Source of the DNA: Bacteroidota bacterium
GTDB lineage: Bacteria > Bacteroidota > Bacteroidia > Bacteroidales > UBA1715
Direction of reading: 5' to 3'
Assembly (NCBI GenBank): GCA_009786075.1
Contig: WQTX01000006.1
Location: forward strand, 99 to 64,098
Length of the DNA stretch: 64,000 nucleotides
A program made the translations under genes and the position numbers. Positions 35,851-60,976 of the stretch are shown here, piece by piece; position 1 is the stretch's first letter, and each line of letters opens with the position of its first letter. The notes beneath the pieces were generated by a model, which saw only the letters and a program-made list of their open reading frames with translations, made no database searches and had not been told where the DNA came from.

Positions 35851-36237
35851 ATGGAAGTAATTAACGCCTTAGGAAGAAGAAAAGCAGCCGTTGCCCGCAT
35901 TTATGTAAAAGAAGGTAAAGGTAGCATTACCATTAATAAAAAAGAATTACAAACGTATTTCCCCGAAGCTCGTCTTCAATACATTGTAAACCAACCTTTA
36001 CAAGCAACTGAAAAAGCAGGTGCTTTCGACATCAATGTAAATTTATGTGGAGGCGGATTTAAAGGTCAAGCCGAAGCGTTGCGTTTAGCAATTGCCCGCG
36101 CATTGGTTAAGTTCGACGAAGAAAATAAAGCGGTACTTCGCAAAAACGGTTTCTTAACTCGCGACCAGCGCGAAGTTGAGCGTAAAAAACCGGGTCAGAA
36201 AAAAGCTCGCAAGAGATTTCAATTTAGTAAACGTTAA
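35851..36237 (+). CDS. rpsI: 30S ribosomal protein S9
   Basis: GRRKAAVAR, GGGFKGQAEA, ERKKPGQKKARKRFQFSKR. Confidence 0.98.
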   Translation: MEVINALGRRKAAVARIYVKEGKGSITINKKELQTYFPEARLQYIVNQPLQATEKAGAFDINVNLCGGGFKGQAEALRLAIARALVKFDEENKAVLRKNGFLTRDQREVERKKPGQKKARKRFQFSKR

Positions 36238-51875: not shown

Positions 51876-52484
51876 ATGCAAAGTATTGATACACAAATAG
51901 AAAAGAAGATAAAGCAAAACAAACGAGGAAAAATATTTTTCGGTGAAGATTTTGCGAAATTCGGTTCGCCCGATGCAATCCGTGTGGCACTGCACAGAAT
52001 GGTAAAAAAGGGTTTGCTCACTCGTGTTGCTTTTGGTATTTACTATTACCCAAAGCACGATACGGAATTACACGGCTATGTTTTCAAAGATACTCCAAGC
52101 ATTGAGGAAATTGCCCGCGCAATCGCAAAACGCGATAAATGCCGCATTGTTCCAACGGCTTCGCACGCACTGAATATGCTTGGACTTTCTACACAAGTAC
52201 CTATGAATGTGGTATATATTACCGATGGCGCGCCTCGAAGAATTAAGGTTGGCAAAGGGCGCGGCATACTGTTCAAACACACTTCCGACTTGAAACGCCT
52301 GTCGTATAAATCTCAAAAATTAATGCTTATTGTTTCCGCATTGCGCGAAATTGGCGAAGGCAGAATGACAGACGAAGAAAAAGAAATCATAAAAAAACAT
52401 TTTTCAACCGTTTCAAAAAAAGAATTTGAAACAGATATAAAATTAATTCCTGTTTGGATTAGAAAACTTTTATTGTCGTTATGA
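51876..52484 (+). CDS. AbiEi-type antitoxin (DUF6088-like)
   Basis: N-terminal wHTH (AIRVALHRMV...GIYYYP), LNMLGLSTQVP...Y.TDG..R. Confidence 0.85.
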   Translation: MQSIDTQIEKKIKQNKRGKIFFGEDFAKFGSPDAIRVALHRMVKKGLLTRVAFGIYYYPKHDTELHGYVFKDTPSIEEIARAIAKRDKCRIVPTASHALNMLGLSTQVPMNVVYITDGAPRRIKVGKGRGILFKHTSDLKRLSYKSQKLMLIVSALREIGEGRMTDEEKEIIKKHFSTVSKKEFETDIKLIPVWIRKLLLSL

Positions 52485-53485
52485 AATATTTGCAATTAAA
52501 CCGCGAGCAACAACTGTTGCTTTTGGACGAAACACATAAGAAAACCAACCTTTTAGAAGTTATCATTGAAAAAGACGAATGGGTTACTGCCGTACTTCGC
52601 GCCTTGTTTTCATTGCCTTACGCCGAACATTTGCTGTTCAAAGGCGGCACTTCGCTGAGCAAATGTTGGAATCTGATAGAGCGATTTTCGGAAGATGTTG
52701 ATATTGCGATAAACCGTGAATTGTTGGGTTTTTCAGGCGAATTGTCGAACAATCAAATCCGCAACAAATTACGCAAAACTTCCTATTTATTCATAAAGGA
52801 AAAATTAGCGCCGGATTTAGCCGAACAAATGGAAATTCAAGGAATAAACTCCGAATTATTTTCTGTGAATGTCGAATTTTCGGAAGATAGTACCAAAGAC
52901 CCTGTAATAGTGGAAGTTGCCTATAATTCAATAATTGAAGGACTTACCTATATAGCCCCTGTTGTAAAACTTGAAATTGGCTGCCGTTCAATGCGTGAGC
53001 CGTTTGAACAGGTTACAATACAGTCGCTTATTGACGAAACTTTCCAAAATACAGCATTATCGAGCAAATCGTTTGAAGTAAATGCCGTAGTGCCGCAACG
53101 CACGTTTATTGAAAAATTGTGCCTTTTACAGGAAGAATTTGCAAAACCGCAGGCACTTGTACGCGCTAACCGAATGAGCCGCCATTTATACGACATTGTA
53201 AAAATGGCAGATTCACACATTGCAGACAAAGCATTTGCAGACAAACATTTATGGACTTCGGTAGTTGAACACAGGCAGAAGTTTGTCAAAATGAAAGACT
53301 TTGATTACAACCTGCTTAAACCCGAAAATATCAGTATAATTCCCCCCGATTTTATTATTTCAGAGTGGCAACAGGATTACGAAACAATGCGCGAAACAAT
53401 GATTTATGGCAATTCGCTATCATTCAACAAATTGATAGACAAGATAAAGCACCTTAACGAGAAAATAAACAGGATTGATTGGTAA
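52481..53485 (+). CDS. AbiEii/AbiGii nucleotidyltransferase toxin (type IV TA)
   Basis: IEKDEW, FKGGTSLSK, RFSEDVD, RTFIEK, SRHLYD; ATGA overlap with the antitoxin. Confidence 0.92.
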   Translation: MKYLQLNREQQLLLLDETHKKTNLLEVIIEKDEWVTAVLRALFSLPYAEHLLFKGGTSLSKCWNLIERFSEDVDIAINRELLGFSGELSNNQIRNKLRKTSYLFIKEKLAPDLAEQMEIQGINSELFSVNVEFSEDSTKDPVIVEVAYNSIIEGLTYIAPVVKLEIGCRSMREPFEQVTIQSLIDETFQNTALSSKSFEVNAVVPQRTFIEKLCLLQEEFAKPQALVRANRMSRHLYDIVKMADSHIADKAFADKHLWTSVVEHRQKFVKMKDFDYNLLKPENISIIPPDFIISEWQQDYETMRETMIYGNSLSFNKLIDKIKHLNEKINRIDW

Positions 53486-53674
53486 GTTTTTATTTCTCCA
53501 ATCTCCCCCAATGGCATTTGGGTATTTATACTTCGGAATTTACAAATCCTCTAACAAACTTTTAAATACCCACACAAAACAAAAAATAACAGCCCAAACA
53601 AAATATTCCCGAAGTAATAATTGTTATTATCAAAATATTACTCTACTTTTGTAGGAGTTATTCATACAAAAAAT

Positions 53675-53764
53675 ATGCACAATTTTTACCCCAATATCAA
53701 TACACACAAACTTGGTAGTAAGCTAACTATCAACGCTTTGCGCTATATAAACGGGGGGGGGTAA
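53675..53764 (+). CDS. Putative 29-aa leader peptide ending in a G9 tract
   Basis: ATG 53675, MHNFYPNINTHKLGSKLTINALRYINGGG-TAA; TACTTTTG -7 element at 53644-53651; below the ORF-track cutoff. Confidence 0.55.
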   Translation: MHNFYPNINTHKLGSKLTINALRYINGGG

Positions 53765-53812
53765 ATCGCTCATTATCAGCGAATTACACAATTCGTCATA
53801 ATTCCTCATAAC

Positions 53813-53866
53813 AAAAAAATCCTTTACCGGAAACGAATGTTCGTTTTCTGTAAAGGATTTTTTATT
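53813..53866 (+). terminator. Intrinsic terminator/attenuator in the leader of the giant surface-protein gene
   Basis: AAAAAATCCTTTAC-CGGAAACGAA-TG-TTCGTTTTCT-GTAAAGGATTTTTT-ATT. Confidence 0.7.
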
Positions 53867-53896
53867 GTCCGCCCCTACAAAAAAATCAACCGAATA

Positions 53897-53930
53897 AACT
53901 TTTCCAAAGTTCTAAAACTTTGGAAAAGTT
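53897..53930. repeat. Hairpin-type repeat
   Basis: AACTTTTCCAAAGTT-CTAA-AACTTTGGAAAAGTT inverted repeat. Confidence 0.65.
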
Positions 53931-53980
53931 ATACAACAAAATAAAAAAAACTCAATAATTTCTTTTAAATCCAATTCAAC

Positions 53981-56900
53981 ATGAAACCAAAAAAACTACT
54001 CACAATCGCACTATTCGCCCTGCTCGCAGCGACGCAGGCATGGGCGCAACCAATCTGGAACGGCACCACAGCCACCAACTGGACAGGCTCCGGCAACTCC
54101 GAAGCCGACCCCTATCTGATTACCACCGCCGAACAATTAGCGGGGCTTGCAGCACAAACCAAAGCCGGAAACACCTTTAAAGGCAAGTTTATTAAACTTG
54201 CCAACGATATTTGGCTAAACGCGCCCAATACGCCTCGCGACGACCGCAACGAATGGCAACCGATAGGCGACTTTGAATATGTTGATGCGGGCGTAAAAAA
54301 CGAGAAAGGGGAACTGGAATATGTTGTAGGAACAATGTTTAGCGGCACATTCGACGGTGGCGGACACACCATTTACGGTGTGTCTAATAACGACAGTATT
54401 CCCGATAACAGCGATTGGTACGATTGGGGAAACTGGTACTTTGGTGCGACATTGAATTTTGAAGGTTTTTGTAGCGGATTTTTCGGACGCATAAACAGCG
54501 ATGCAACTATTCAGAATCTTAACCTCAAAGATGTAAATATAACAGGTTGTTACGATGTTGCCGGATTGGTTGCCACGAACAATGGTACAATACGCAACTG
54601 TAGCGTTGTGGGAGGTGTGGTAACGACAAGCACCGATGGTAGTGCAGGGGACGGAATTGCAGGAATAAATAACGGAACAATAGACAACTGCTTTGCCGAT
54701 GTAGAAACAATAGGTTGGCGAGTTAGCGGATTTGTTGGGAACAACGAAGAAAATGGCACAATAACCAATAGTTCGGCAGCGGGCAATGCGTTTAATTGGT
54801 CTGAAAAATCTAACATTATTTCCGGTTTTGTCTGCGTTAACGCCGGGTTTATCAACAACTGCTACTCTACGGGAAACGTAACGAATAATGCAGGTAATAC
54901 AAATGCCGTTGGCGCAGGATTTGTAGGAGTAAATCAAGAAACAGCTATCATTACCAACAGTTACAGCACAGGAAACGTAAGTGGTGCTATGGACGGCGTC
55001 TACAGCTTCGGCGGCGGTTTTGTAGCTGAGAATCGCGGCTATATTGCCAACTGTTACGCTCTGGGTGATGTAAGTGCTAATTGCAGGGGATTTGCGTGGA
55101 CAAATTCACATTATACCACAGATTGGTCGCTAACCGGCAACACGAATGCAACAATTATTAACTGTTTTTATGCCGGTAATTCCCTTACTATGAATGGATT
55201 TACCAACCGCAGCGGTATTTTAATCAACAATTATTTCGATGTTAAAAAAAGCGGATTTGATGTTGAAGACGGCGGTGAGCCGCGCACAACCGAATATATG
55301 CAATCGCAGGCATTTGTCGATACGCTTAATATGTTTTCGGCGTTGTTCGGATTGAATACTTGGGTACACACACCCGGCGAATACCCAAAACCAAGCGGAA
55401 CGGTTGCAACCAACCTGAGCGATTATCTGAAAGGCGGCGCTGGAACAGAAAGCAACCCCTATTTAATTGAAACAAAAGAACAGCTTAGCAATTTTGCCAC
55501 GTATGTAAATAAAGGGCATTGGTTTAACGATGAATACATACAAATGACAGCCGATATTGCTTGGAGTAACACGCCACGCGAAGAATGGGGTGCAAACCCG
55601 CCACCTTCGTTTAAACCCATAGGACACCGATTTACCAAAGCCTACACGGGCACTTCTTCTATAAGTGTAGTTTCCAAACCATTTTGTGGTACATTCAACG
55701 GCAGCGGTCATACAATCAGTAATTTGCGCATCAATAGTAATACCGATAATCAAGGATTATTCGGTTATGTGCATTATGGCGTTATCAAAAACCTCAACAT
55801 AGAGGGAGCGTATGTAAGAGGCAATTTGAACGTTGGCATACTTGCCGGTATGGTTGACCAAGGAACTATTGATAATTGCCACTCCACCGGAGAGGTTTTA
55901 GGTGCTGTGTTACCAAGCAGTACTCCAATAGGCGGATTGGTTGGAGCATTTGACGTTTCGCAACTTCGTTTATTTGCCCCAAAAGAAAATTTCCAACATA
56001 CTATAAAAAACTGTTACTCTACGGCAGAAGTAAAAAATGTTACTTCCGGCGCGATTGCAGGCGGAGGATTGCTTGGTGGGGCTTCGGCAACCGCCTCTAT
56101 CGAGAACTGTTATGCAATGGGAGGATTACATTTAATAGGCATTAGTCAGGCTTATCAAAAAAACACTTACACCACCACCACTACCAAGCCAACCAATTTC
56201 TATTCAGATAGATTTAGCAATGTTTTTTATCAAAGCAATGATGCTCCTATTGACAAAGAAGAACGAAAACCACGAACAAAGGAGTATATGCAAAGCAAAT
56301 CGTTTGTAAACGAATTGAATTACCCTGCCGCCGTGAATAACGCCACAGAAGAATGGAAATACCTGTATTGGCAATATAACGAAAACGATTATCCTACATT
56401 TACCGCCATTCTTCCGCCAACTGTTACGGTAACATTCGTGAGCAATGGCGGTAGCGAAGTCGTGGCGCAACCGGTGCTTGCCGGCAGCCACCCAATTGCG
56501 CCGCCTGCGCCCACACTCAACGGCTTTACTCTTGCCGGCTGGTACACCGATGAAGCATTGGAAAACCTGTTTACATTCGGCACTGATGTAATTGACAACA
56601 ATATAACGCTTTATGCCAAATGGGCGCCAAACTTTGCTCCCGACATAACGTGGTACACCGAAAATACGCATCTGAACGAATTTACCATATATACAGTGGA
56701 GCAACTCGCAGGCTTGGCGGCTCTTGTAAACGGTACTACATCGTGGGGAGTATTCGATTTTAAGGGAAAAACGGTAAATTTGGGCAACGATATTGCCATA
56801 AACGATACCACAAATTGGCAACAGTGGGGCATTAATCTCACGGCACAGTCGTGGACGCCAATAGGTGTAAATTATATGCAAGGATTTGAAGGAACATTCA

Positions 56901-59900
56901 ACGGCAAGGGGTACACGGTAAGTGGCGTGTATATCAACAGTTACAATGGCACTAATTTGGGATTGTTTGGTTCTATTGGTGTCAATGGGGTAATAAAAAA
57001 TCTTGGCGTTGTTGCGTCGTATGTGAGGGGAAGTACTGAACTTGGAATTTTAGCAGGACGAATTGATGGAGGCACAATAACCAATTGTTACGCTGTGGGA
57101 AATGTGGTTTCAACAAAACTTGTTTCAAGTTATATGTCTGACAGTAATGCCGGTGTATTAGTAGGCACAGCATTTAATGCAAAAATAGACAACTGTTATG
57201 CTATGGGAAGAGTAGAAGGAGGTCGCTACATTGGTGGATTAGTTGGAAACACTCCCACTACCGGTGTTACTACAATAACCAATTGCTACGCAGTAGTAGC
57301 AGTAACAGGCAAATCAGATGTCGGCGGATTAAAAGGCTACCCCAATGCAACTACGGCTATACCCAACTCCTACTACGACAGCCAAATAAGCACCCTAACC
57401 ACCACAAACGCCTCAGCCAAAGCAACACTCTCAATGAAACAAATAGCAACTTTTGCAGGTTGGGATTTCAACACAATTTGGGGCAGAAACGACAACATCA
57501 ACGGCGGTTACCCATATTTACGTATGGGCAAAACCGAGCCGAACGATGCCGATAAAACGGTTACCATTACATTTAACAGCAACGGCGGCAGCGCAGTTTC
57601 GCCCGCTTCAACGGTGGTAACCATTGGGCAAAAACTAAGCAAACCGGCAAATCCTACACGCGCAGGATTGGAATTTGCAGGCTGGTTTTCCAATAAAGAA
57701 CTGACCCAAGCGGTAGATTTCAGCGCCGATATTACATACGAAAAAGACACCACGCTCTATGCCGGTTGGCTTATTACTCTTATCAACACCACTTTCGCCA
57801 CCGAAGAATCGGTAAGCAACTGGGGGCTTAAAGGCGTAACTTGGAACAGCAGTACAAAATTGAGCTTTATCATCAGTGGGGCAACCGCCCAGGTGATGCC
57901 CCTGCTGCCTCAAAATAAAACGAATTTGAGCGTGGAACTTACAACCGTAAACGGCGCTTACTTAACCATGCAGACCTCGCCCGATAACGTTGATTATGCC
58001 GATTACGGCAAAGTTACCGCCAACAATGCAACTTCCACAGCTACCATTGCACTGCCCGACAGCACGCGCTACATTGCATTCACATCAACCGGAACTAACA
58101 CTCCGCGATTGACCGCCTTGAAAGTAAAATGGATTCTCGGCAGCGAAGACCCGTTTACCACCGTAACCTTCGACGGCAACGGCGGCTTGAACAAAAGCGA
58201 TGGCACTCCTTACGCACAGCAGGTAACGGTTGTAACGGGTATGCCGGTACAATTGCCTGCCGTTCTGCCTGTGAAACCCGGCGAGATAATCGAAGGCTGG
58301 TATTTTGATACCGAATTGACCAAGCCGTACAGTTCCAAAACAGAGATTTTGGGCGCAACCACCATTTATGCAAAATGGAAATCGGGCTACATGGACGTAA
58401 CATTCGAGAGCAACGGCGGCAGCGCTGTTGCACCAAAAAGCGTATTTATGGGCGAAAAGGTAACTGCGCCTGCAAATCCTACCCGCGCGGGTTACGTTTT
58501 TGTACGCTGGTGTACGGACGAAGGGCTGACCACCGCATTTAATTTTACCGCCACAGTAATTACCGAACCTGTTACACTCTATGCGGCGTGGAACGTGAGC
58601 TATTATGTAAGCATAAATTCGCAGGCAGAAGTAAGCAATTGGACGCTCGGCGACGGCGTAACATATAGCAACGGACAGCTGAATTTTACAAAAAGCGGGG
58701 CGTATATTGACCTTCCTGTGCTTCCTGCTTTAAGAAAAGGCATCACTATTACCATTACCGGAACATCGTACAATTATCTTTCGGTAGAGACGTCGGCAAT
58801 TGGCGGCGTAGGTATGTATACTAATCAAGGCGCATTTACCACCGCCACCAAAAACCTGCCCGACAATACCCGTTATATACGAATTACTGCAACTTCCGCA
58901 ATTTCCATTGCTTTAACTTCCATAAGAATATCGTGGCTGAACGACAGCGAAAACCCCGTAGCCACCGTAACATTTGAAACCAACGGCGGCAACGCAATTG
59001 CTCAGCGAGGCGCCATAAAGGGCATGACTTATGCACCGCCTGCACCCACAAAAACGGGGCATACGTTCAACGGCTGGTATTTGGACGAAGCGCTTGAAAC
59101 CGGATTTTCAAACACTGTCATTATTCAGGACGACGCTTTTACGCTCTACGCAAAATGGACGCCGGAACTGCGCAAGGTAACATTTAACGCCAACAGCGGA
59201 ACAGCCGTAGCACCAATTGACACCGATTACGGCACGCCAATAACCGAACCGGAAGAACCTACGCGAGCTAATTATATATTCCGTGGCTGGTACACCGACA
59301 ATACAACCTTCCTAAAACCCTTTGATTTTGCAACGCCAATAACCGCCAACATAACGCTTTACGCGAAATGGGAGGCTCTGCTTTCGGTAGTGTTCAACAC
59401 CGGCACCGGCGGAACGGTTATTCCCACACAGTGGGTAGAAACAGGCGCAACCGTGCCACAACCCGAAGACCCCGAAAGAGCGGGCTACCTATTTAAAGGT
59501 TGGGTTACAACATCGGGCGGCTCGGTGGAATTTGATTTTGCCAACCCAATTACCGTAAGCAGAACAATTTATGCAAGCTGGGCAATACTTCGCACAGTTA
59601 CTTTCAACACCGGCACCGGCGGCAGCGAAATTCCCACACAATATGTAGAAAACGGCACACCGGCGCAACGACCGGAAGAAGACCCAACAAGAGCAAACTT
59701 TGTATTTAAAGGCTGGGTAACAACTTCGGGCGGAACAACAGCATTTAACTTTGCCAACCCAATTACCGCAAACACAACGGTGTATGCACGCTGGGCAGCA
59801 GCCTACGCAATCAGTTGGAGTGTAAACGACGAAATTGTTCAATCGGAATTTGTAGAGCAGGGCGTAATACCCACATTCAACGGCGAAACGCCCGAAAAAG

Positions 59901-60976
59901 AAGCCACAGCGCAATACAGCTACACGTTCACAGGTTGGTCGCCTGCAATTACAGCAGCCACCGCCGCGCGCACCTACACGGCACAATTCAGTCAAACACT
60001 CCGTTCGTACGATGTAATTTTCAACAGCAACGGCGGCAGCAACGTAGCAAAACAAACCGTAACCTACGGAAACAAAGCCACCACCCCAACTGCTCCTACA
60101 AAAGCCGACAGCACATTCGTAGCTTGGTATTCCAACAAAGAACTAACCACAGCGTTTAATTTCACAACCACAATCACAGGCGAAATTACGCTTTACGCCA
60201 AATGGGAGTGCGCCCACGATTTTAGCGTTCCCAACATGACGCTTGCCGCCACTTGTACCCTAAAAGGCGCAGGCTATTACACCTGTTCTTTCTGTGGAGC
60301 CACCGGCAGTAATTACGAAATTCCGGCAACGGGACACTCGTTTGGCGCATGGGCTATAACCACAGCAACTACCTGCCAAGCCAAAGGCACAGAAACAAGA
60401 ACATGCAGCACATGCGGCGCAACCGAAACACGCGACATTCCACAATTGGCGCACACATTCGGCAATTGGGCTGTAACCACCGCCGCCACTTGCTCGGCAG
60501 CAGGCGAAGAAACACGCACCTGCTCAATTTGCAGCAAAGTTGAAACGCGCCCGATTGCACAATTGCCACACACTTTCGGCAATTGGACTGTAACCACTGC
60601 CGCCACTTGCGAAGCAAAAGGCACGGAAACAAGAACATGCAGCCAATGCAGCGCAACCGAAACCCAAGATATTCCCCAATTAACCGAAGGTTGCTGCGTG
60701 GGAATTGACGAAATTTCGGCAAACGAAATTATTGTGTACCCAAATCCTACGAAAGGGCAATTGACGATTTCGGGCGTAGAGACGCAATGCATTGCGTCTC
60801 TACCACAAACCGTAGAAATTTACGATAACACCGGTCGATTGGTGGAAACGTTGCAGGAGACGCGGCACGCCACGTCTCTACATGGAAACGGATTAACAAT
60901 CGACATTTCCCACCTGCCAACCGGCATTTATTTCATACAAATAAACGGCAAACGGGTGAAGGTTGTGAAAAAATAG
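53981..60976 (+). CDS. 2331-aa T9SS surface protein with GLUG-type beta-solenoids, InlB B (Listeria-Bacteroides) repeats, Cys-rich repeats and type A CTD
   Basis: Signal peptide; three PYLI/F.G.F.G.G.TI + GG(L/F)VG..NCY modules; about eight F.SNGGS...P...GY.F.GWY...TLYAKW repeats; H.FG.W...ATC...G...TCS.C repeats; VYPNP...IYD..GR...GIYFI...K CTD. Confidence 0.9.
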   Translation: MKPKKLLTIALFALLAATQAWAQPIWNGTTATNWTGSGNSEADPYLITTAEQLAGLAAQTKAGNTFKGKFIKLANDIWLNAPNTPRDDRNEWQPIGDFEYVDAGVKNEKGELEYVVGTMFSGTFDGGGHTIYGVSNNDSIPDNSDWYDWGNWYFGATLNFEGFCSGFFGRINSDATIQNLNLKDVNITGCYDVAGLVATNNGTIRNCSVVGGVVTTSTDGSAGDGIAGINNGTIDNCFADVETIGWRVSGFVGNNEENGTITNSSAAGNAFNWSEKSNIISGFVCVNAGFINNCYSTGNVTNNAGNTNAVGAGFVGVNQETAIITNSYSTGNVSGAMDGVYSFGGGFVAENRGYIANCYALGDVSANCRGFAWTNSHYTTDWSLTGNTNATIINCFYAGNSLTMNGFTNRSGILINNYFDVKKSGFDVEDGGEPRTTEYMQSQAFVDTLNMFSALFGLNTWVHTPGEYPKPSGTVATNLSDYLKGGAGTESNPYLIETKEQLSNFATYVNKGHWFNDEYIQMTADIAWSNTPREEWGANPPPSFKPIGHRFTKAYTGTSSISVVSKPFCGTFNGSGHTISNLRINSNTDNQGLFGYVHYGVIKNLNIEGAYVRGNLNVGILAGMVDQGTIDNCHSTGEVLGAVLPSSTPIGGLVGAFDVSQLRLFAPKENFQHTIKNCYSTAEVKNVTSGAIAGGGLLGGASATASIENCYAMGGLHLIGISQAYQKNTYTTTTTKPTNFYSDRFSNVFYQSNDAPIDKEERKPRTKEYMQSKSFVNELNYPAAVNNATEEWKYLYWQYNENDYPTFTAILPPTVTVTFVSNGGSEVVAQPVLAGSHPIAPPAPTLNGFTLAGWYTDEALENLFTFGTDVIDNNITLYAKWAPNFAPDITWYTENTHLNEFTIYTVEQLAGLAALVNGTTSWGVFDFKGKTVNLGNDIAINDTTNWQQWGINLTAQSWTPIGVNYMQGFEGTFNGKGYTVSGVYINSYNGTNLGLFGSIGVNGVIKNLGVVASYVRGSTELGILAGRIDGGTITNCYAVGNVVSTKLVSSYMSDSNAGVLVGTAFNAKIDNCYAMGRVEGGRYIGGLVGNTPTTGVTTITNCYAVVAVTGKSDVGGLKGYPNATTAIPNSYYDSQISTLTTTNASAKATLSMKQIATFAGWDFNTIWGRNDNINGGYPYLRMGKTEPNDADKTVTITFNSNGGSAVSPASTVVTIGQKLSKPANPTRAGLEFAGWFSNKELTQAVDFSADITYEKDTTLYAGWLITLINTTFATEESVSNWGLKGVTWNSSTKLSFIISGATAQVMPLLPQNKTNLSVELTTVNGAYLTMQTSPDNVDYADYGKVTANNATSTATIALPDSTRYIAFTSTGTNTPRLTALKVKWILGSEDPFTTVTFDGNGGLNKSDGTPYAQQVTVVTGMPVQLPAVLPVKPGEIIEGWYFDTELTKPYSSKTEILGATTIYAKWKSGYMDVTFESNGGSAVAPKSVFMGEKVTAPANPTRAGYVFVRWCTDEGLTTAFNFTATVITEPVTLYAAWNVSYYVSINSQAEVSNWTLGDGVTYSNGQLNFTKSGAYIDLPVLPALRKGITITITGTSYNYLSVETSAIGGVGMYTNQGAFTTATKNLPDNTRYIRITATSAISIALTSIRISWLNDSENPVATVTFETNGGNAIAQRGAIKGMTYAPPAPTKTGHTFNGWYLDEALETGFSNTVIIQDDAFTLYAKWTPELRKVTFNANSGTAVAPIDTDYGTPITEPEEPTRANYIFRGWYTDNTTFLKPFDFATPITANITLYAKWEALLSVVFNTGTGGTVIPTQWVETGATVPQPEDPERAGYLFKGWVTTSGGSVEFDFANPITVSRTIYASWAILRTVTFNTGTGGSEIPTQYVENGTPAQRPEEDPTRANFVFKGWVTTSGGTTAFNFANPITANTTVYARWAAAYAISWSVNDEIVQSEFVEQGVIPTFNGETPEKEATAQYSYTFTGWSPAITAATAARTYTAQFSQTLRSYDVIFNSNGGSNVAKQTVTYGNKATTPTAPTKADSTFVAWYSNKELTTAFNFTTTITGEITLYAKWECAHDFSVPNMTLAATCTLKGAGYYTCSFCGATGSNYEIPATGHSFGAWAITTATTCQAKGTETRTCSTCGATETRDIPQLAHTFGNWAVTTAATCSAAGEETRTCSICSKVETRPIAQLPHTFGNWTVTTAATCEAKGTETRTCSQCSATETQDIPQLTEGCCVGIDEISANEIIVYPNPTKGQLTISGVETQCIASLPQTVEIYDNTGRLVETLQETRHATSLHGNGLTIDISHLPTGIYFIQINGKRVKVVKK
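60776..60881. repeat. GTAG-type REP palindromes in frame within the T9SS CTD
   Basis: Perfect 28-bp GTAGAGACGCAATGCATTGCGTCTCTAC (60776-60803) and GAGACGCGGCACGCCACGTCTCTAC (60857-60881). Confidence 0.85.

What the first reader, a model, noticed from the sequence alone, without database searches (positions are those of the whole stretch)
53644..53980. Candidate phase-variable attenuator: poly-G leader peptide, staggered stops and a terminator ahead of a giant surface protein
Seen, in order: TAnnTTTG promoter element (53644); ATG 53675; a 29-codon ORF ending in G9 (53753-53761) then TAA; a 10-nt tandem duplication (ATTCGTCATA/ATTCCTCATA); a long hairpin with U tract (53813-53866); the 2331-aa gene. 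With G8/G11 the leader reads ...GKSLIISELHNSS and stops at 53799-53801. With G10/G7 it reads ...VNRSLSANYTIRHNSS and stops at 53809-53811, one base before the hairpin. Both slipped frames end in HNSS-stop and no frame fuses to the main ORF. Established: G tracts slip at high frequency, and ribosome position can control intrinsic terminators. Inference: tract length sets where the ribosome stops (48, 11 or 1 nt before the stem), switching or grading read-through into the surface protein without frameshifting it; G9 would be OFF. I do not know of this architecture being described in Bacteroidota.
Basis: partly seen in the sequence, partly recalled or inferred. Interest (0 to 1): 0.85.

Follow-up and report, generated by a model that had tools for sequence, protein, structure and literature searches.

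The report
Poly-G leader switch for surface protein
A short translated leader with a run of nine G's, an immediate stop codon and a strong terminator sits ahead of a giant secreted surface-protein gene; it belongs to a widespread, apparently undescribed family of poly-G switch modules in gut Bacteroidales and most likely works like a known streptococcal repeat-controlled attenuator.

Summary
The leader is not a one-off. This genome has at least four full paralogous leaders: promoter box, ATG ORF of 24-26 codons, G9-10, TAA, hairpin, terminator, secreted-protein gene. Related poly-G+TAA modules occur in 43 loci of Bacteroidales MAGs. In the same bacterial family, poly-G+TAA tracts also lie inside ORFs (hsdS, capsule and acyltransferase genes, SDR), assembled in both open and broken states, as contingency loci are. 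The closest precedent is the Streptococcus gallolyticus pil1 attenuator, where repeat number in a leader peptide decides whether the ribosome reaches a terminator. In paralogs the +1 frame runs into or through the terminator. In the window copy a 10-nt tandem duplication stops both shifted frames before the stem, so the predicted switch is weak here. It also explains the shared 'HNSS-stop'. Tract-length variation at this locus was not seen: G9 in contigs of three runs, and only contigs were available. A conserved sequence after the tract remains unexplained by the attenuator model. In one frame it reads GGG-K/N-x-L-I-I. Verdict: real, a new variant of a known kind, mechanism unproven.

The parts
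53644..53651 (+). TACTTTTG, a Bacteroidota-type -7 promoter box (TAnnTTTG). A TTG lies about 18 nt upstream.
   Evidence: It is the only + strand match in the intergenic region. It aligns with TAnnTTTG in paralogs C127, C28 and C27. Promoter function is inferred.
53675..53764 (+). Leader ORF: 29 codons ending GGG GGG GGG TAA.
   Evidence: Homologous ORFs of 24-35 codons are found in 13 of 14 leader-type loci.
53753..53761 (+). G9 homopolymer tract.
   Evidence: Contigs of runs X1, X2 and X3 bridge it with G9.
53762..53786 (+). Conserved post-tract module TAAATCGCT-CATTATC-AGCGAATTA. It comprises the stop codon in frame a, an 8/9-bp hairpin, and GKSLIISEL in frame b.
53790..53809 (+). Tandem 10-nt duplication, specific to the window copy. 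It carries the frame-b stop (53799-53801) and the frame-c stop (53809-53811).
   Evidence: It appears as a 10-column insertion relative to the three paralogs in alignment A2.
53814..53863 (+). Intrinsic terminator: a long hairpin with an A tract 5' and a T6 tract 3'.
   Evidence: (I1), (dG -20.6).
53897..53930 (+). REP-like perfect palindrome (15-nt arms). It is one of 41 copies in the genome and is usually found next to gene 3' ends.
53981..60976 (+). 2331-aa T9SS cargo protein: signal peptide, 9 Listeria-Bacteroides repeats, GLUG motif, and a Por_Secre_tail C-terminal domain.
53685..53692 (+). TTTACCCC, a perfect complement of GGGGTAAA at 53758-53765. The meaning of this possible long-range pairing is unclear.
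   Evidence: I11. One search found such a complement in only 10 of 47 loci, that is, the window and one other subfamily.

Best explanation
Positions 53644-53866 form the transcribed 5' leader of the T9SS surface-protein gene. A Bacteroidota-type promoter drives a short translated ORF. That ORF runs through a slippage-prone G9 tract into an immediately following TAA, about 50 nt ahead of a strong intrinsic terminator. The main gene has no recognisable promoter of its own, so it depends on read-through.

The leader is one copy of a multi-copy poly-G/TAA switch module found across Bacteroidales. The most likely mechanism is repeat-controlled leader-peptide attenuation, as shown for S. gallolyticus pil1. 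When the tract length puts TAA in frame (G9, as assembled), the ribosome leaves early, the terminator forms and expression is low. A length change of one base lets the ribosome run on towards the terminator and raises read-through.

In this particular copy a 10-nt tandem duplication has placed stops in both shifted frames just before the stem. The switch is therefore probably weak or partly disabled here. Without the duplication, the G10 frame would continue as the 44-codon open frame that runs through the terminator.

Shown here: anatomy, paralogy, retention of the ORF, frame geometry, and poly-G ON/OFF states in ORFs of relatives. Inferred: transcription start, translation of the leader, slippage at this tract, and the effect on termination.
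For: Anatomy.

Paralogs in this genome:
- C127, C28 and C27/C64 share the promoter box, ORF, G9-10, TAA, hairpin and terminator, followed 35-45 nt later by signal-peptide genes with no TAnnTTTG in between.
- The covariance model R1 scores them at 128-164 bits.

Wider family:
- 6 of 401 genomes of the order match the module pattern, against 0 for the reversed control.
- 43 loci were found in species-representative genomes, with tracts of G8 to G17.

Leader ORF retained:
- 13 of 14 leader-type loci have an ATG-ORF of 17-35 codons running into the tract. The chance per locus of one of at least 15 codons is 0.08-0.52.
- Orthologs L094 and L095 (95.1% identical over 3004 nt) keep the same frame through the tract despite three indels that sum to 3. 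The ORF ends inside the terminator 3' arm.

Frame geometry: the TAA frame always stops at +3. A shifted frame enters or passes the terminator in C127, C28, L035, L038, L060, L070, L076 and L095.

Frame states among the 14 leader-type loci: a in 9, b in 3, c in 2.

Tract lengths differ between orthologs: L043 has G8 with the ORF open; L058 has G9 with TAA in frame; they are 97.4% identical over 1460 nt.

Same family, within ORFs: G8+TAA occurs at 52 sites against 14 for the reversed control in 24 genomes. Tracts lie inside Acyl_transf_3, PGA_cap and DUF7033 ORFs (open), and inside SDR and HsdS ORFs (split).

Window frame a has only the TAA as a stop in 89 codons, and the frame starting at 53810 is open for 44 codons through the terminator.

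Precedent: PMC3894217, abstract and section 13.
Against: - No length variant was seen. Contigs of X1, X2 (same sample as X1) and X3 bridge the tract with G9. Contigs hide minor variants, and X1 may be the source sample.
- A 99.0%-identical strain variant of the C127 leader also keeps G9.
- In the window the b and c stops lie 13 and 3 nt before the first paired base (53814) of the predicted terminator helix. With a ribosome placed on them, the predicted terminator keeps 22 and 14 pairs respectively.
- A REP-like palindrome follows the terminator. Elsewhere it sits at gene 3' ends in 39 of 41 copies and could be a second barrier.
- One large subfamily (Paludibacteraceae/Enterocola, 10 loci) mostly lacks an ORF reading into the tract.
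- The strongly conserved sequence after the tract is not explained by the model.
- The peptide before the tract is not conserved as a protein. By eye, the differences between C127 and C28 fall 10/3/3 on codon positions 1/2/3.
- No transcript or ribosome data exist.
Confidence: 0.5

Rival explanations
1. The leader is an attenuator, but the G tract is a fixed functional element read at the RNA or ribosome level rather than a mutational switch. Ribosomes reaching GGG-GGG-GGG-TAA might stall or slip back on the homopolymer, moving into the frames that stay open. Alternatively, a C/U-rich small RNA or an RNA-binding protein might target the G run, as recalled for the H. pylori RepG-tlpB G-repeat. 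Either would set read-through physiologically.
For: - TAA directly follows the tract at every module, and much more often than the reversed control in the family (52 against 14).
- Both shifted frames are open through the CTYATTATCA form of the module.
- G9 is unchanged between strains and samples.
- The sequence after the tract is conserved well beyond what a simple repeat switch needs.
- In one subfamily and in the window, an upstream C-rich stretch is exactly complementary to the tract end plus TAA.
Against: - Tract lengths range from G8 to G17, and all three frame states occur among homologous leaders.
- ORFs carrying such tracts are found both open and broken. That is the signature of mutational switching.
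- The post-tract hairpin is only weakly supported across 48 modules: 67.6% paired against 65.0% in shuffles.
- No candidate small RNA was identified or searched for systematically.
- The upstream complement is absent from the window's own paralogs.
Confidence: 0.2
2. The window copy is a decayed or locked member of the family. The 10-nt duplication cut the shifted frames off from the terminator and a REP element was inserted. The leader now acts only as a constitutive damper, with basal read-through and no switching, while paralogs such as C127 and C28 remain functional switches.
For: - The duplication is specific to the window.
- The long open frame through the terminator is now reachable only past the TAA.
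- Constrained folds leave the terminator largely intact in all three frames.
- The window leader is the most divergent of the four, with the lowest R1 score, 127.8 bits.
- A REP palindrome lies between the terminator and the gene.
Against: - The G9 tract, the in-frame ATG ORF, the TAA and the module are all intact.
- A stop only 3 nt before the first paired base of the terminator helix (the frame c stop) may still weaken termination. In the S. gallolyticus model, stops 'within or close to' the terminator count as ON.
- A two-copy 10-nt tandem repeat can itself be lost by slippage (inference).
Confidence: 0.17
3. The conserved G-run+TAA+CTYATTATCA unit is a DNA-level element, either a recombination site or a small mobile cassette. 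Its association with leaders and ORFs would then reflect insertion or cassette exchange rather than regulation.
For: - The same roughly 25-nt sequence appears in unrelated contexts and in two different reading frames.
- It has a 9-7-9 palindromic layout in some copies.
- Its distribution among genomes is patchy.
- Several contigs of this assembly end at long G tracts.
Against: - An independent assembly joins C27 and C64 colinearly across the module.
- No loose ends or joints at the module appear in the listed rows for the laid contigs (41 loose-end rows were not shown).
- No recombinase gene was seen in the ORF lists around the nine other sites, and the window's two flanking genes are an AbiE pair. 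Most of those ORFs were not scanned against families.
- In SusC and acetyltransferase-like ORFs the module seems to replace native residues rather than add length. This was judged by eye and not tested by alignment.
- Leu codons at the conserved position vary synonymously (CTG, TTG, CTC, CTT). That points to coding constraint, not a protein-binding DNA site.
Confidence: 0.06

Closest known systems
Streptococcus gallolyticus pil1 leader-peptide/GCAGA-repeat attenuator (Danne et al. 2014, PMC3894217; abstract and section 13 read)
   Same: - The promoter-proximal leader ORF contains a slippage-prone repeat.
- The in-frame repeat number stops translation tens of nt (39 bp there, about 50 nt here) before an intrinsic terminator, giving low expression.
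- Out-of-frame numbers carry the ribosome to or through the hairpin, giving high expression.
- The regulated product is a surface structure.
   Different: - The repeat here is a homopolymer (G9) rather than a 5-nt repeat.
- The organism is Gram-negative Bacteroidales, whose translation does not rely on Shine-Dalgarno pairing.
- The element is multi-copy (at least 4 leaders per genome) and is shared with tracts inside ORFs.
- An invariant TAA and a conserved sequence follow the tract.
- In the window copy the shifted frames stop just short of the hairpin.
- Nothing here has been tested experimentally.
Classical poly-G contingency loci (Campylobacter, Helicobacter, Neisseria, Haemophilus; general knowledge, and review PMC11868660, passages read)
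   Same: - Long G tracts are far in excess of expectation.
- They are associated with surface proteins, capsule or LPS genes and type I restriction specificity genes.
- ON and OFF alleles are both present in assemblies of relatives.
   Different: - In the window the tract is not in the regulated ORF or its promoter spacer. It lies in a separate leader ORF ahead of a terminator.
- The phylum is one in which the passages I read describe phase variation only by DNA invertases.
Variable G-repeat in the H. pylori tlpB leader targeted by the small RNA RepG (Pernitzsch et al. 2014; seen only as a reference title, details recalled)
   Same: A homopolymeric G repeat of variable length sits in the 5' leader of a gene, and its length tunes expression post-transcriptionally.
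   Different: No cognate small RNA is known or was sought here. In the window the tract lies inside a conserved ORF and is followed by a terminator.
Ribosome-mediated attenuation of amino-acid operons (trp, his; textbook knowledge)
   Same: A leader peptide, a run of identical codons near its end, and a downstream intrinsic terminator.
   Different: No alternative antiterminator helix was found. The regulated genes encode secreted surface proteins, not glycine metabolism enzymes. Tract length varies among copies.

Membership tests
Repeat-in-leader-peptide transcription attenuator (S. gallolyticus pil1 type) | [quoted passage not shown] | tested here: met
   TACTTTTG at 53644, ATG at 53675, 29 codons. 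The ORF is retained in 13 of 14 leader-type loci. Transcription and translation themselves are inferred.
Repeat-in-leader-peptide transcription attenuator (S. gallolyticus pil1 type) | A slippage-prone repeat inside the leader ORF. | tested here: met
   G9 at 53753-53761 forms codons 27-29. Homologs carry G8 to G17.
Repeat-in-leader-peptide transcription attenuator (S. gallolyticus pil1 type) | An intrinsic terminator between the leader ORF and the regulated gene, with no promoter after it. | tested here: met
   A hairpin of dG -20.6 plus T6. There is no TAnnTTTG on the + strand between 53652 and 53980. Other promoter types were not excluded.
Repeat-in-leader-peptide transcription attenuator (S. 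gallolyticus pil1 type) | Out-of-frame repeat numbers place the stop within or beyond the terminator. | tested here: not met
   In the window the stops end at +40 and +50, and the predicted terminator helix begins at +53 (53814). The hairpin keeps 22 or 14 pairs. The feature is met in paralogs C127 (+98) and C28 (+71) and in L035, L038, L060, L070, L076 and L095.
Repeat-in-leader-peptide transcription attenuator (S. gallolyticus pil1 type) | Repeat-number variants coexist in the population. | tested here: inconclusive
   Only assembled contigs were available. They show G9 in X1, X2 and X3. Orthologs elsewhere differ in length.
Repeat-in-leader-peptide transcription attenuator (S. gallolyticus pil1 type) | Read-through depends on translation of the leader. 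| not testable with these tools
   This needs reporters, Term-seq or Ribo-seq.
Classical translational contingency locus | The repeat lies inside the regulated ORF, so its length sets that ORF's frame. | tested here: not met
   No frame from the tract reaches 53981. The feature is met in relatives L043/L058, L077, L113-L115, L118 and L120.
Described cis-regulatory RNA families (Rfam 15) | A match reaching a family's gathering score. | tested here: not met
   The best hit was 28.2 bits against a threshold of 94, and all hits were unrelated hairpin-type families.
G-repeat leader targeted by a small RNA (RepG-tlpB type) | A cognate C/U-rich small RNA complementary to the repeat. | not tested
   No systematic search was made.
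Amino-acid-sensing leader-peptide attenuator (trp/his type) | An alternative antiterminator helix that competes with the terminator when the ribosome stalls. | tested here: not met
   Folds with the ribosome footprint blocked at the a or b stop keep the full terminator.

The most novel reading that the evidence does not exclude
Uncultured gut Bacteroidales carry a portable poly-G/TAA switch module. It consists of G8-17, an invariant TAA in one frame, and a conserved following sequence. In one frame that sequence reads GGG-[K/N]-x-L-[I/V/F]-[I/F]-[S/N/K]-x-L, with synonymous Leu codon variation.

The same module is used in two ways: inside ORFs (hsdS, capsule and acyltransferase genes, SusC, peptidases), and inside leader ORFs placed before terminators of T9SS and surface-protein genes. 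This would define a repeat-based 'phasome' in a phylum thought to rely on DNA invertases.

The conserved post-tract sequence would add a second layer, acting as a nascent-peptide or recoding signal at the G-run/stop. If so, the element would be both a mutational and a translational switch.
Probability: 0.3. Interest if true: 0.85.

Novelty: new variant of a known kind. Interest (0 to 1): 0.68.

Why it matters
In the papers I read, phase variation in Bacteroidales is described as the work of DNA invertases. This finding points to a second, repeat-based system in gut and termite-gut Bacteroidales. It controls T9SS surface proteins, lipoproteins, capsule genes and restriction specificity.

In its leader form it couples a homopolymer tract to transcription termination through a leader peptide. 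That mechanism has so far been demonstrated only once, in a Gram-positive bacterium. It would give a directly testable handle on surface-protein heterogeneity in uncultured symbionts. It would also affect how MAG annotation pipelines treat 'frameshifted' genes and short upstream ORFs next to G runs.

Tried and rejected
Rfam scan. An E-value scan of 53300-54100 gave only sub-threshold hairpin look-alikes.

Consensus terminator scan. The simple scan missed the 53814-53863 hairpin, probably because of its 2-nt loop and one mismatch. I relied instead.

A second call returned a format error and I did not pursue it.

Expression. No RNA holder was listed for the stretch.

Tract heterogeneity. Only Logan contigs were on offer. 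The X4 contigs do not bridge the tract with 31 nt on both sides, so X4 gives no verdict.

Metagenome scan for this exact leader with any tract length of 6-14: 0 hits.

Leader peptides against known families. The window peptide and peptides from L038, L076, L083 and L095 gave no hit in NCBIfam at E up to 10. I had noticed a resemblance to double-glycine bacteriocin leaders and to extended signal-peptide regions, but both were recalled from memory, not tested, and are dropped.

Post-tract hairpin as a conserved RNA or DNA helix. Support is only marginal across 48 modules. I therefore do not treat it as a defining structure.

Long-range pairing of the tract with an upstream C-rich stretch. It is present in the window and in one subfamily only and is not general.

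Recombinase-site or mobile-cassette idea. I found no junction variants in the rows listed, no recombinase in the ORF lists I examined (most ORFs unscanned), and colinear assembly across a module.

Assembly or poly-G sequencing artefact. I rejected this for three reasons. The tracts are internal. ORFs continue in frame across several of them. The same loci were recovered in an independent metagenome assembly.

Literature. Five full-text searches, plus passages of the 2025 phase-variation review, found no description of homopolymer-tract phase variation or of a poly-G leader attenuator in Bacteroidales. One further search failed on term syntax. Supplementary files were not consulted and could hold relevant tract lists.
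Full report
OBSERVATION

- TACTTTTG at 53644-51.
- ATG at 53675.
- A 29-codon ORF ending GGG GGG GGG TAA, with G9 at 53753-61.
- A tandem 10-mer at 53790-53809.
- A 24-nt-arm inverted repeat at 53814-37 and 53840-63, with a T6 tract. Stem dG is -20.6 kcal/mol.
- The 2331-aa ORF from 53981.

The shifted frames read as claimed: GGGKSLIISELHNSS-stop at 53799-801 and GGVNRSLSANYTIRHNSS-stop at 53809-11. The leader folds far better than shuffles, with z = -7.68. The promoter box alone is not significant, with 90 matches in the window against 88 expected. It is nevertheless the only one on the + strand of the 495-nt intergenic region, and it is conserved in paralogs.

The main ORF is a T9SS cargo protein with 9 Listeria-Bacteroides repeats, a GLUG motif and a Por_Secre_tail domain. 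The two genes upstream are an AbiEi/AbiEii pair. Runs that hold the stretch are recorded as termite gut metagenomes.

THE LEADER IS NOT UNIQUE

The genome (G000, 3.18 Mb, 176 contigs) has only 25 G or C runs of 8 or more. Seven loci have G9-11 followed directly by TAA.

Four are full paralogous leaders: the window, C127, C28 and C27/C64. An independent metagenome contig shows that C27 and C64 are one locus. These four share:
- a TAnnTTTG box;
- an A-rich start context with ATG (TTG in C27);
- an ORF of 24-26 codons;
- G9-10 and then TAA;
- a hairpin of the form TAAnnnnCT-yATTAyC-AGnnnnTTA;
- a terminator 55-85 nt after the tract;
- 35-45 nt later, a gene with a signal peptide.

A covariance model of the four finds them at 128-164 bits. 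It finds weaker copies in C86 and C35. The downstream genes are T9SS cargo (window, C28, C86) or other secreted proteins (C127, C64).

WIDER DISTRIBUTION

The module pattern, allowing one mismatch, hits 6 of 401 genomes of the order. The reversed control hits none.

An exact scan of species-representative genomes gives 43 loci. All are MAGs or uncultured Bacteroidales/Bacteroidota from animal and termite guts. Tract lengths are G8 x19, G9 x9, G10 x6, and G11 to G17 x9. I estimate that only a few hits would be expected by chance.

The loci fall into three groups:
- Leader-type loci, with a terminator and a downstream signal-peptide gene. These include a Bacteroidaceae/Prevotella subfamily of 5.
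- Loci where the tract lies inside a long ORF.
- A Paludibacteraceae/Enterocola subfamily of 10, with a different upstream structure and mostly no ORF into the tract.

In the window's own family, G8+TAA occurs 52 times in 24 genomes, against 14 for the reversed control. I sampled 20 regions (22 tract sites) around these G8+TAA sites. The tracts lie inside Acyl_transf_3, PGA_cap and DUF7033 ORFs, which are open as assembled. They also lie inside an SDR and a type I HsdS ORF, where the two halves are in different frames. That is the signature of classical contingency loci.

Two orthologous pairs differ at the tract:
- L043 has G8 with the ORF open and L058 has G9 with TAA in frame. They are 97.4% identical over 1460 nt.
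- L095 has G8 and L094 has an interrupted GGGGGAGGG. They are 95.1% identical over 3004 nt.

IS THE LEADER TRANSLATED, AND DOES THE FRAME MATTER?

13 of 14 leader-type loci keep an ATG-ORF of 17-35 codons running into the tract. The chance of one of at least 15 codons is 0.08-0.52 per locus in dinucleotide shuffles. Taking one locus per subfamily and multiplying, by my own arithmetic, gives about 1e-5. The subfamilies share ancestry, so this overstates the significance.

In the L094/L095 pair, three indels around the tract sum to 3. The same frame is preserved, and it ends at a TGA inside the terminator's 3' arm.

The peptide before the tract is not conserved as a protein. What is conserved is that the frame stays open. 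This is typical of attenuator leaders.

Among the 14 leader-type loci the assembled frame is a (TAA at once) in 9, b in 3 and c in 2. The TAA frame always ends 33-55 nt before the terminator stem. A shifted frame enters or passes the stem in C127 (+98), C28 (+71), L035, L038, L060, L070, L076 and L095.

This matches the proven S. gallolyticus pil1 mechanism. There the short leader stops 39 bp before the terminator and gives low expression. Out-of-frame GCAGA repeat numbers put the stop within or after the hairpin, and the ribosome prevents its formation (PMC3894217, abstract and section 13).

THE WINDOW COPY IS THE WEAKEST CASE

A 10-nt tandem duplication is absent from the three paralogs, where alignment A2 shows a 10-column gap. 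It carries the stops of both shifted frames. It also explains why both frames end in HNSS-stop.

Frame a has no stop other than the TAA in 89 codons. The frame starting at 53810 is open for 44 codons, through the terminator and the palindrome. By coordinate arithmetic, with a single 10-nt copy this long frame would be the G10 frame, as in C127.

With the ribosome footprint blocked, the predicted terminator keeps all 22 pairs for the a and b stops. It keeps 14 pairs, closing 2 nt further from the T tract, for the c stop.

A REP-like palindrome (41 copies, 39 of them next to a gene 3' end) lies between the terminator and the gene.

Contigs of three runs from at least two samples show G9 with no difference. 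A 99.0%-identical strain variant of the C127 leader also keeps G9. Contigs cannot show minor variants.

WHAT THE MODEL DOES NOT EXPLAIN

The sequence after the tract is conserved beyond the search pattern:
- Position +24 is T in 41 of 42 loci.
- Position +23 is T in 33 of 42.
- Position +25 is A or G in 38 of 42.

The 9-7-9 hairpin is well formed in some copies: 8/9 pairs in the window and 9/9 in C127. Across 48 modules it is only marginally better than shuffles, at 67.6% paired against 65.0 +/- 1.2%.

In the less biased family sample, the conserved block varies as CTGATATTCAA, CTGATTATCAA, TTGATATTCAA and CTCATAATCAA. In frame b these are four synonymous Leu codons followed by Ile/Phe codons. 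This suggests a peptide constraint, GGG-[K/N]-x-L-[I/V/F]-[I/F]-[S/N/K]-x-L, even in leaders where that frame is not the assembled one. The CTGA variants also put a TGA in frame c.

The same nucleotides are read in frame b in some ORFs (L043, L069, L077, L113) and in frame c in others (L063, L065, L081). I cannot say whether this reflects a nascent-peptide or recoding function, dual-frame tolerance, or shared origin of a portable module.

COMPARISON AND NOVELTY

The logic is that of the pil1 attenuator, and the tract is that of classical poly-G contingency loci. The following appear to be new:
- the phylum;
- the homopolymer-in-leader form;
- its multi-copy use ahead of T9SS and secreted-protein genes;
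- the conserved TAA-plus-sequence module shared between leaders and ORFs.

Five full-text searches found no prior description. In the passages of the 2025 review that mention Bacteroides, its phase variation is described only through invertases or inversions; none mentions repeat-mediated switching there. Supplements were not seen.

VERDICT

For this copy it is only partly supported and is unproven. I put confidence in the repeat-controlled attenuator reading at 0.5, and interest at 0.68.

Noticed in passing
window 53897-53930, and 40 other places in G000 (e.g. C3:21598, C8:1191, C86:127 and 2655): A REP-like perfect palindrome family, AAC-TTTTCCAAAGTT-(3-4 nt)-AACTTTGGAAAA-GTT, with 41 copies. 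39 of 41 lie next to a gene 3' end and only 2 lie in divergent intergenic regions. Many copies also occur in a genome of another family (G031).
   Followed up: partly
window 51876-53485 (+): A DUF6088/AbiEi-like antitoxin (202 aa) and an AbiEii nucleotidyltransferase toxin (334 aa), overlapping by 4 nt, lie directly upstream of the leader.
   Followed up: partly
window 53765-53944 (+), frame of the leader ORF: After the TAA the leader's own frame stays open for 59 more codons, through the terminator and the palindrome. This is unusual for AT-rich intergenic DNA and is best explained by the 10-nt duplication having shifted an ancestral long G10-frame ORF.
   Followed up: partly
G000 C17 end (36227-36237) and C102 start (1-11): Two contigs end and begin in G11. 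Read together, they would give a short ATG ORF ending in the tract plus TAA, a hairpin, and then a TAnnTTTG box and a 320-aa ORF. This may be another module, broken by the assembler.
   Followed up: no
L113-L115 (G019:C19:1500-8350), L120 (G022:C150): Three poly-G+TAA tracts lie within 7 kb in an acyltransferase, a PGA_cap capsule gene and a DUF7033 gene. A G9 tract also splits the two specificity domains of a type I HsdS gene. Together they suggest a repeat-based phasome, including a candidate phase-variable restriction system, in the same bacterial family.
   Followed up: partly
L042, L051, L054, L056, L059, L064, L073, L079, L080, L082: A Paludibacteraceae/Enterocola subfamily. It has a conserved basic mini-ORF (starting ATGACAAGACATAGAAGCCG...) and two small hairpins. 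An AAATTACCC stretch is exactly complementary to the tract end plus TAATTT. After the module come arrays of GGTCAAGG/GGACAGT-like repeats, and then lipoprotein genes 270-470 nt downstream.
   Followed up: no
G000, many contigs (e.g. C33:6169-6224, C35:7003-7129, C36:29623-29677): A second abundant repeat family of G+C-rich palindromes of the form CCCCC-TTTA/TNA-GGGGG, often in tandem pairs. It accounts for most of the shorter G/C runs in the genome.
   Followed up: no
L102, L106 (G001:C2 and C33): Paralogous 75-78-aa ORFs of unknown family carry a G8/G9+TAA tract at their very 3' end, so tract length changes only the C-terminal tail.
   Followed up: no
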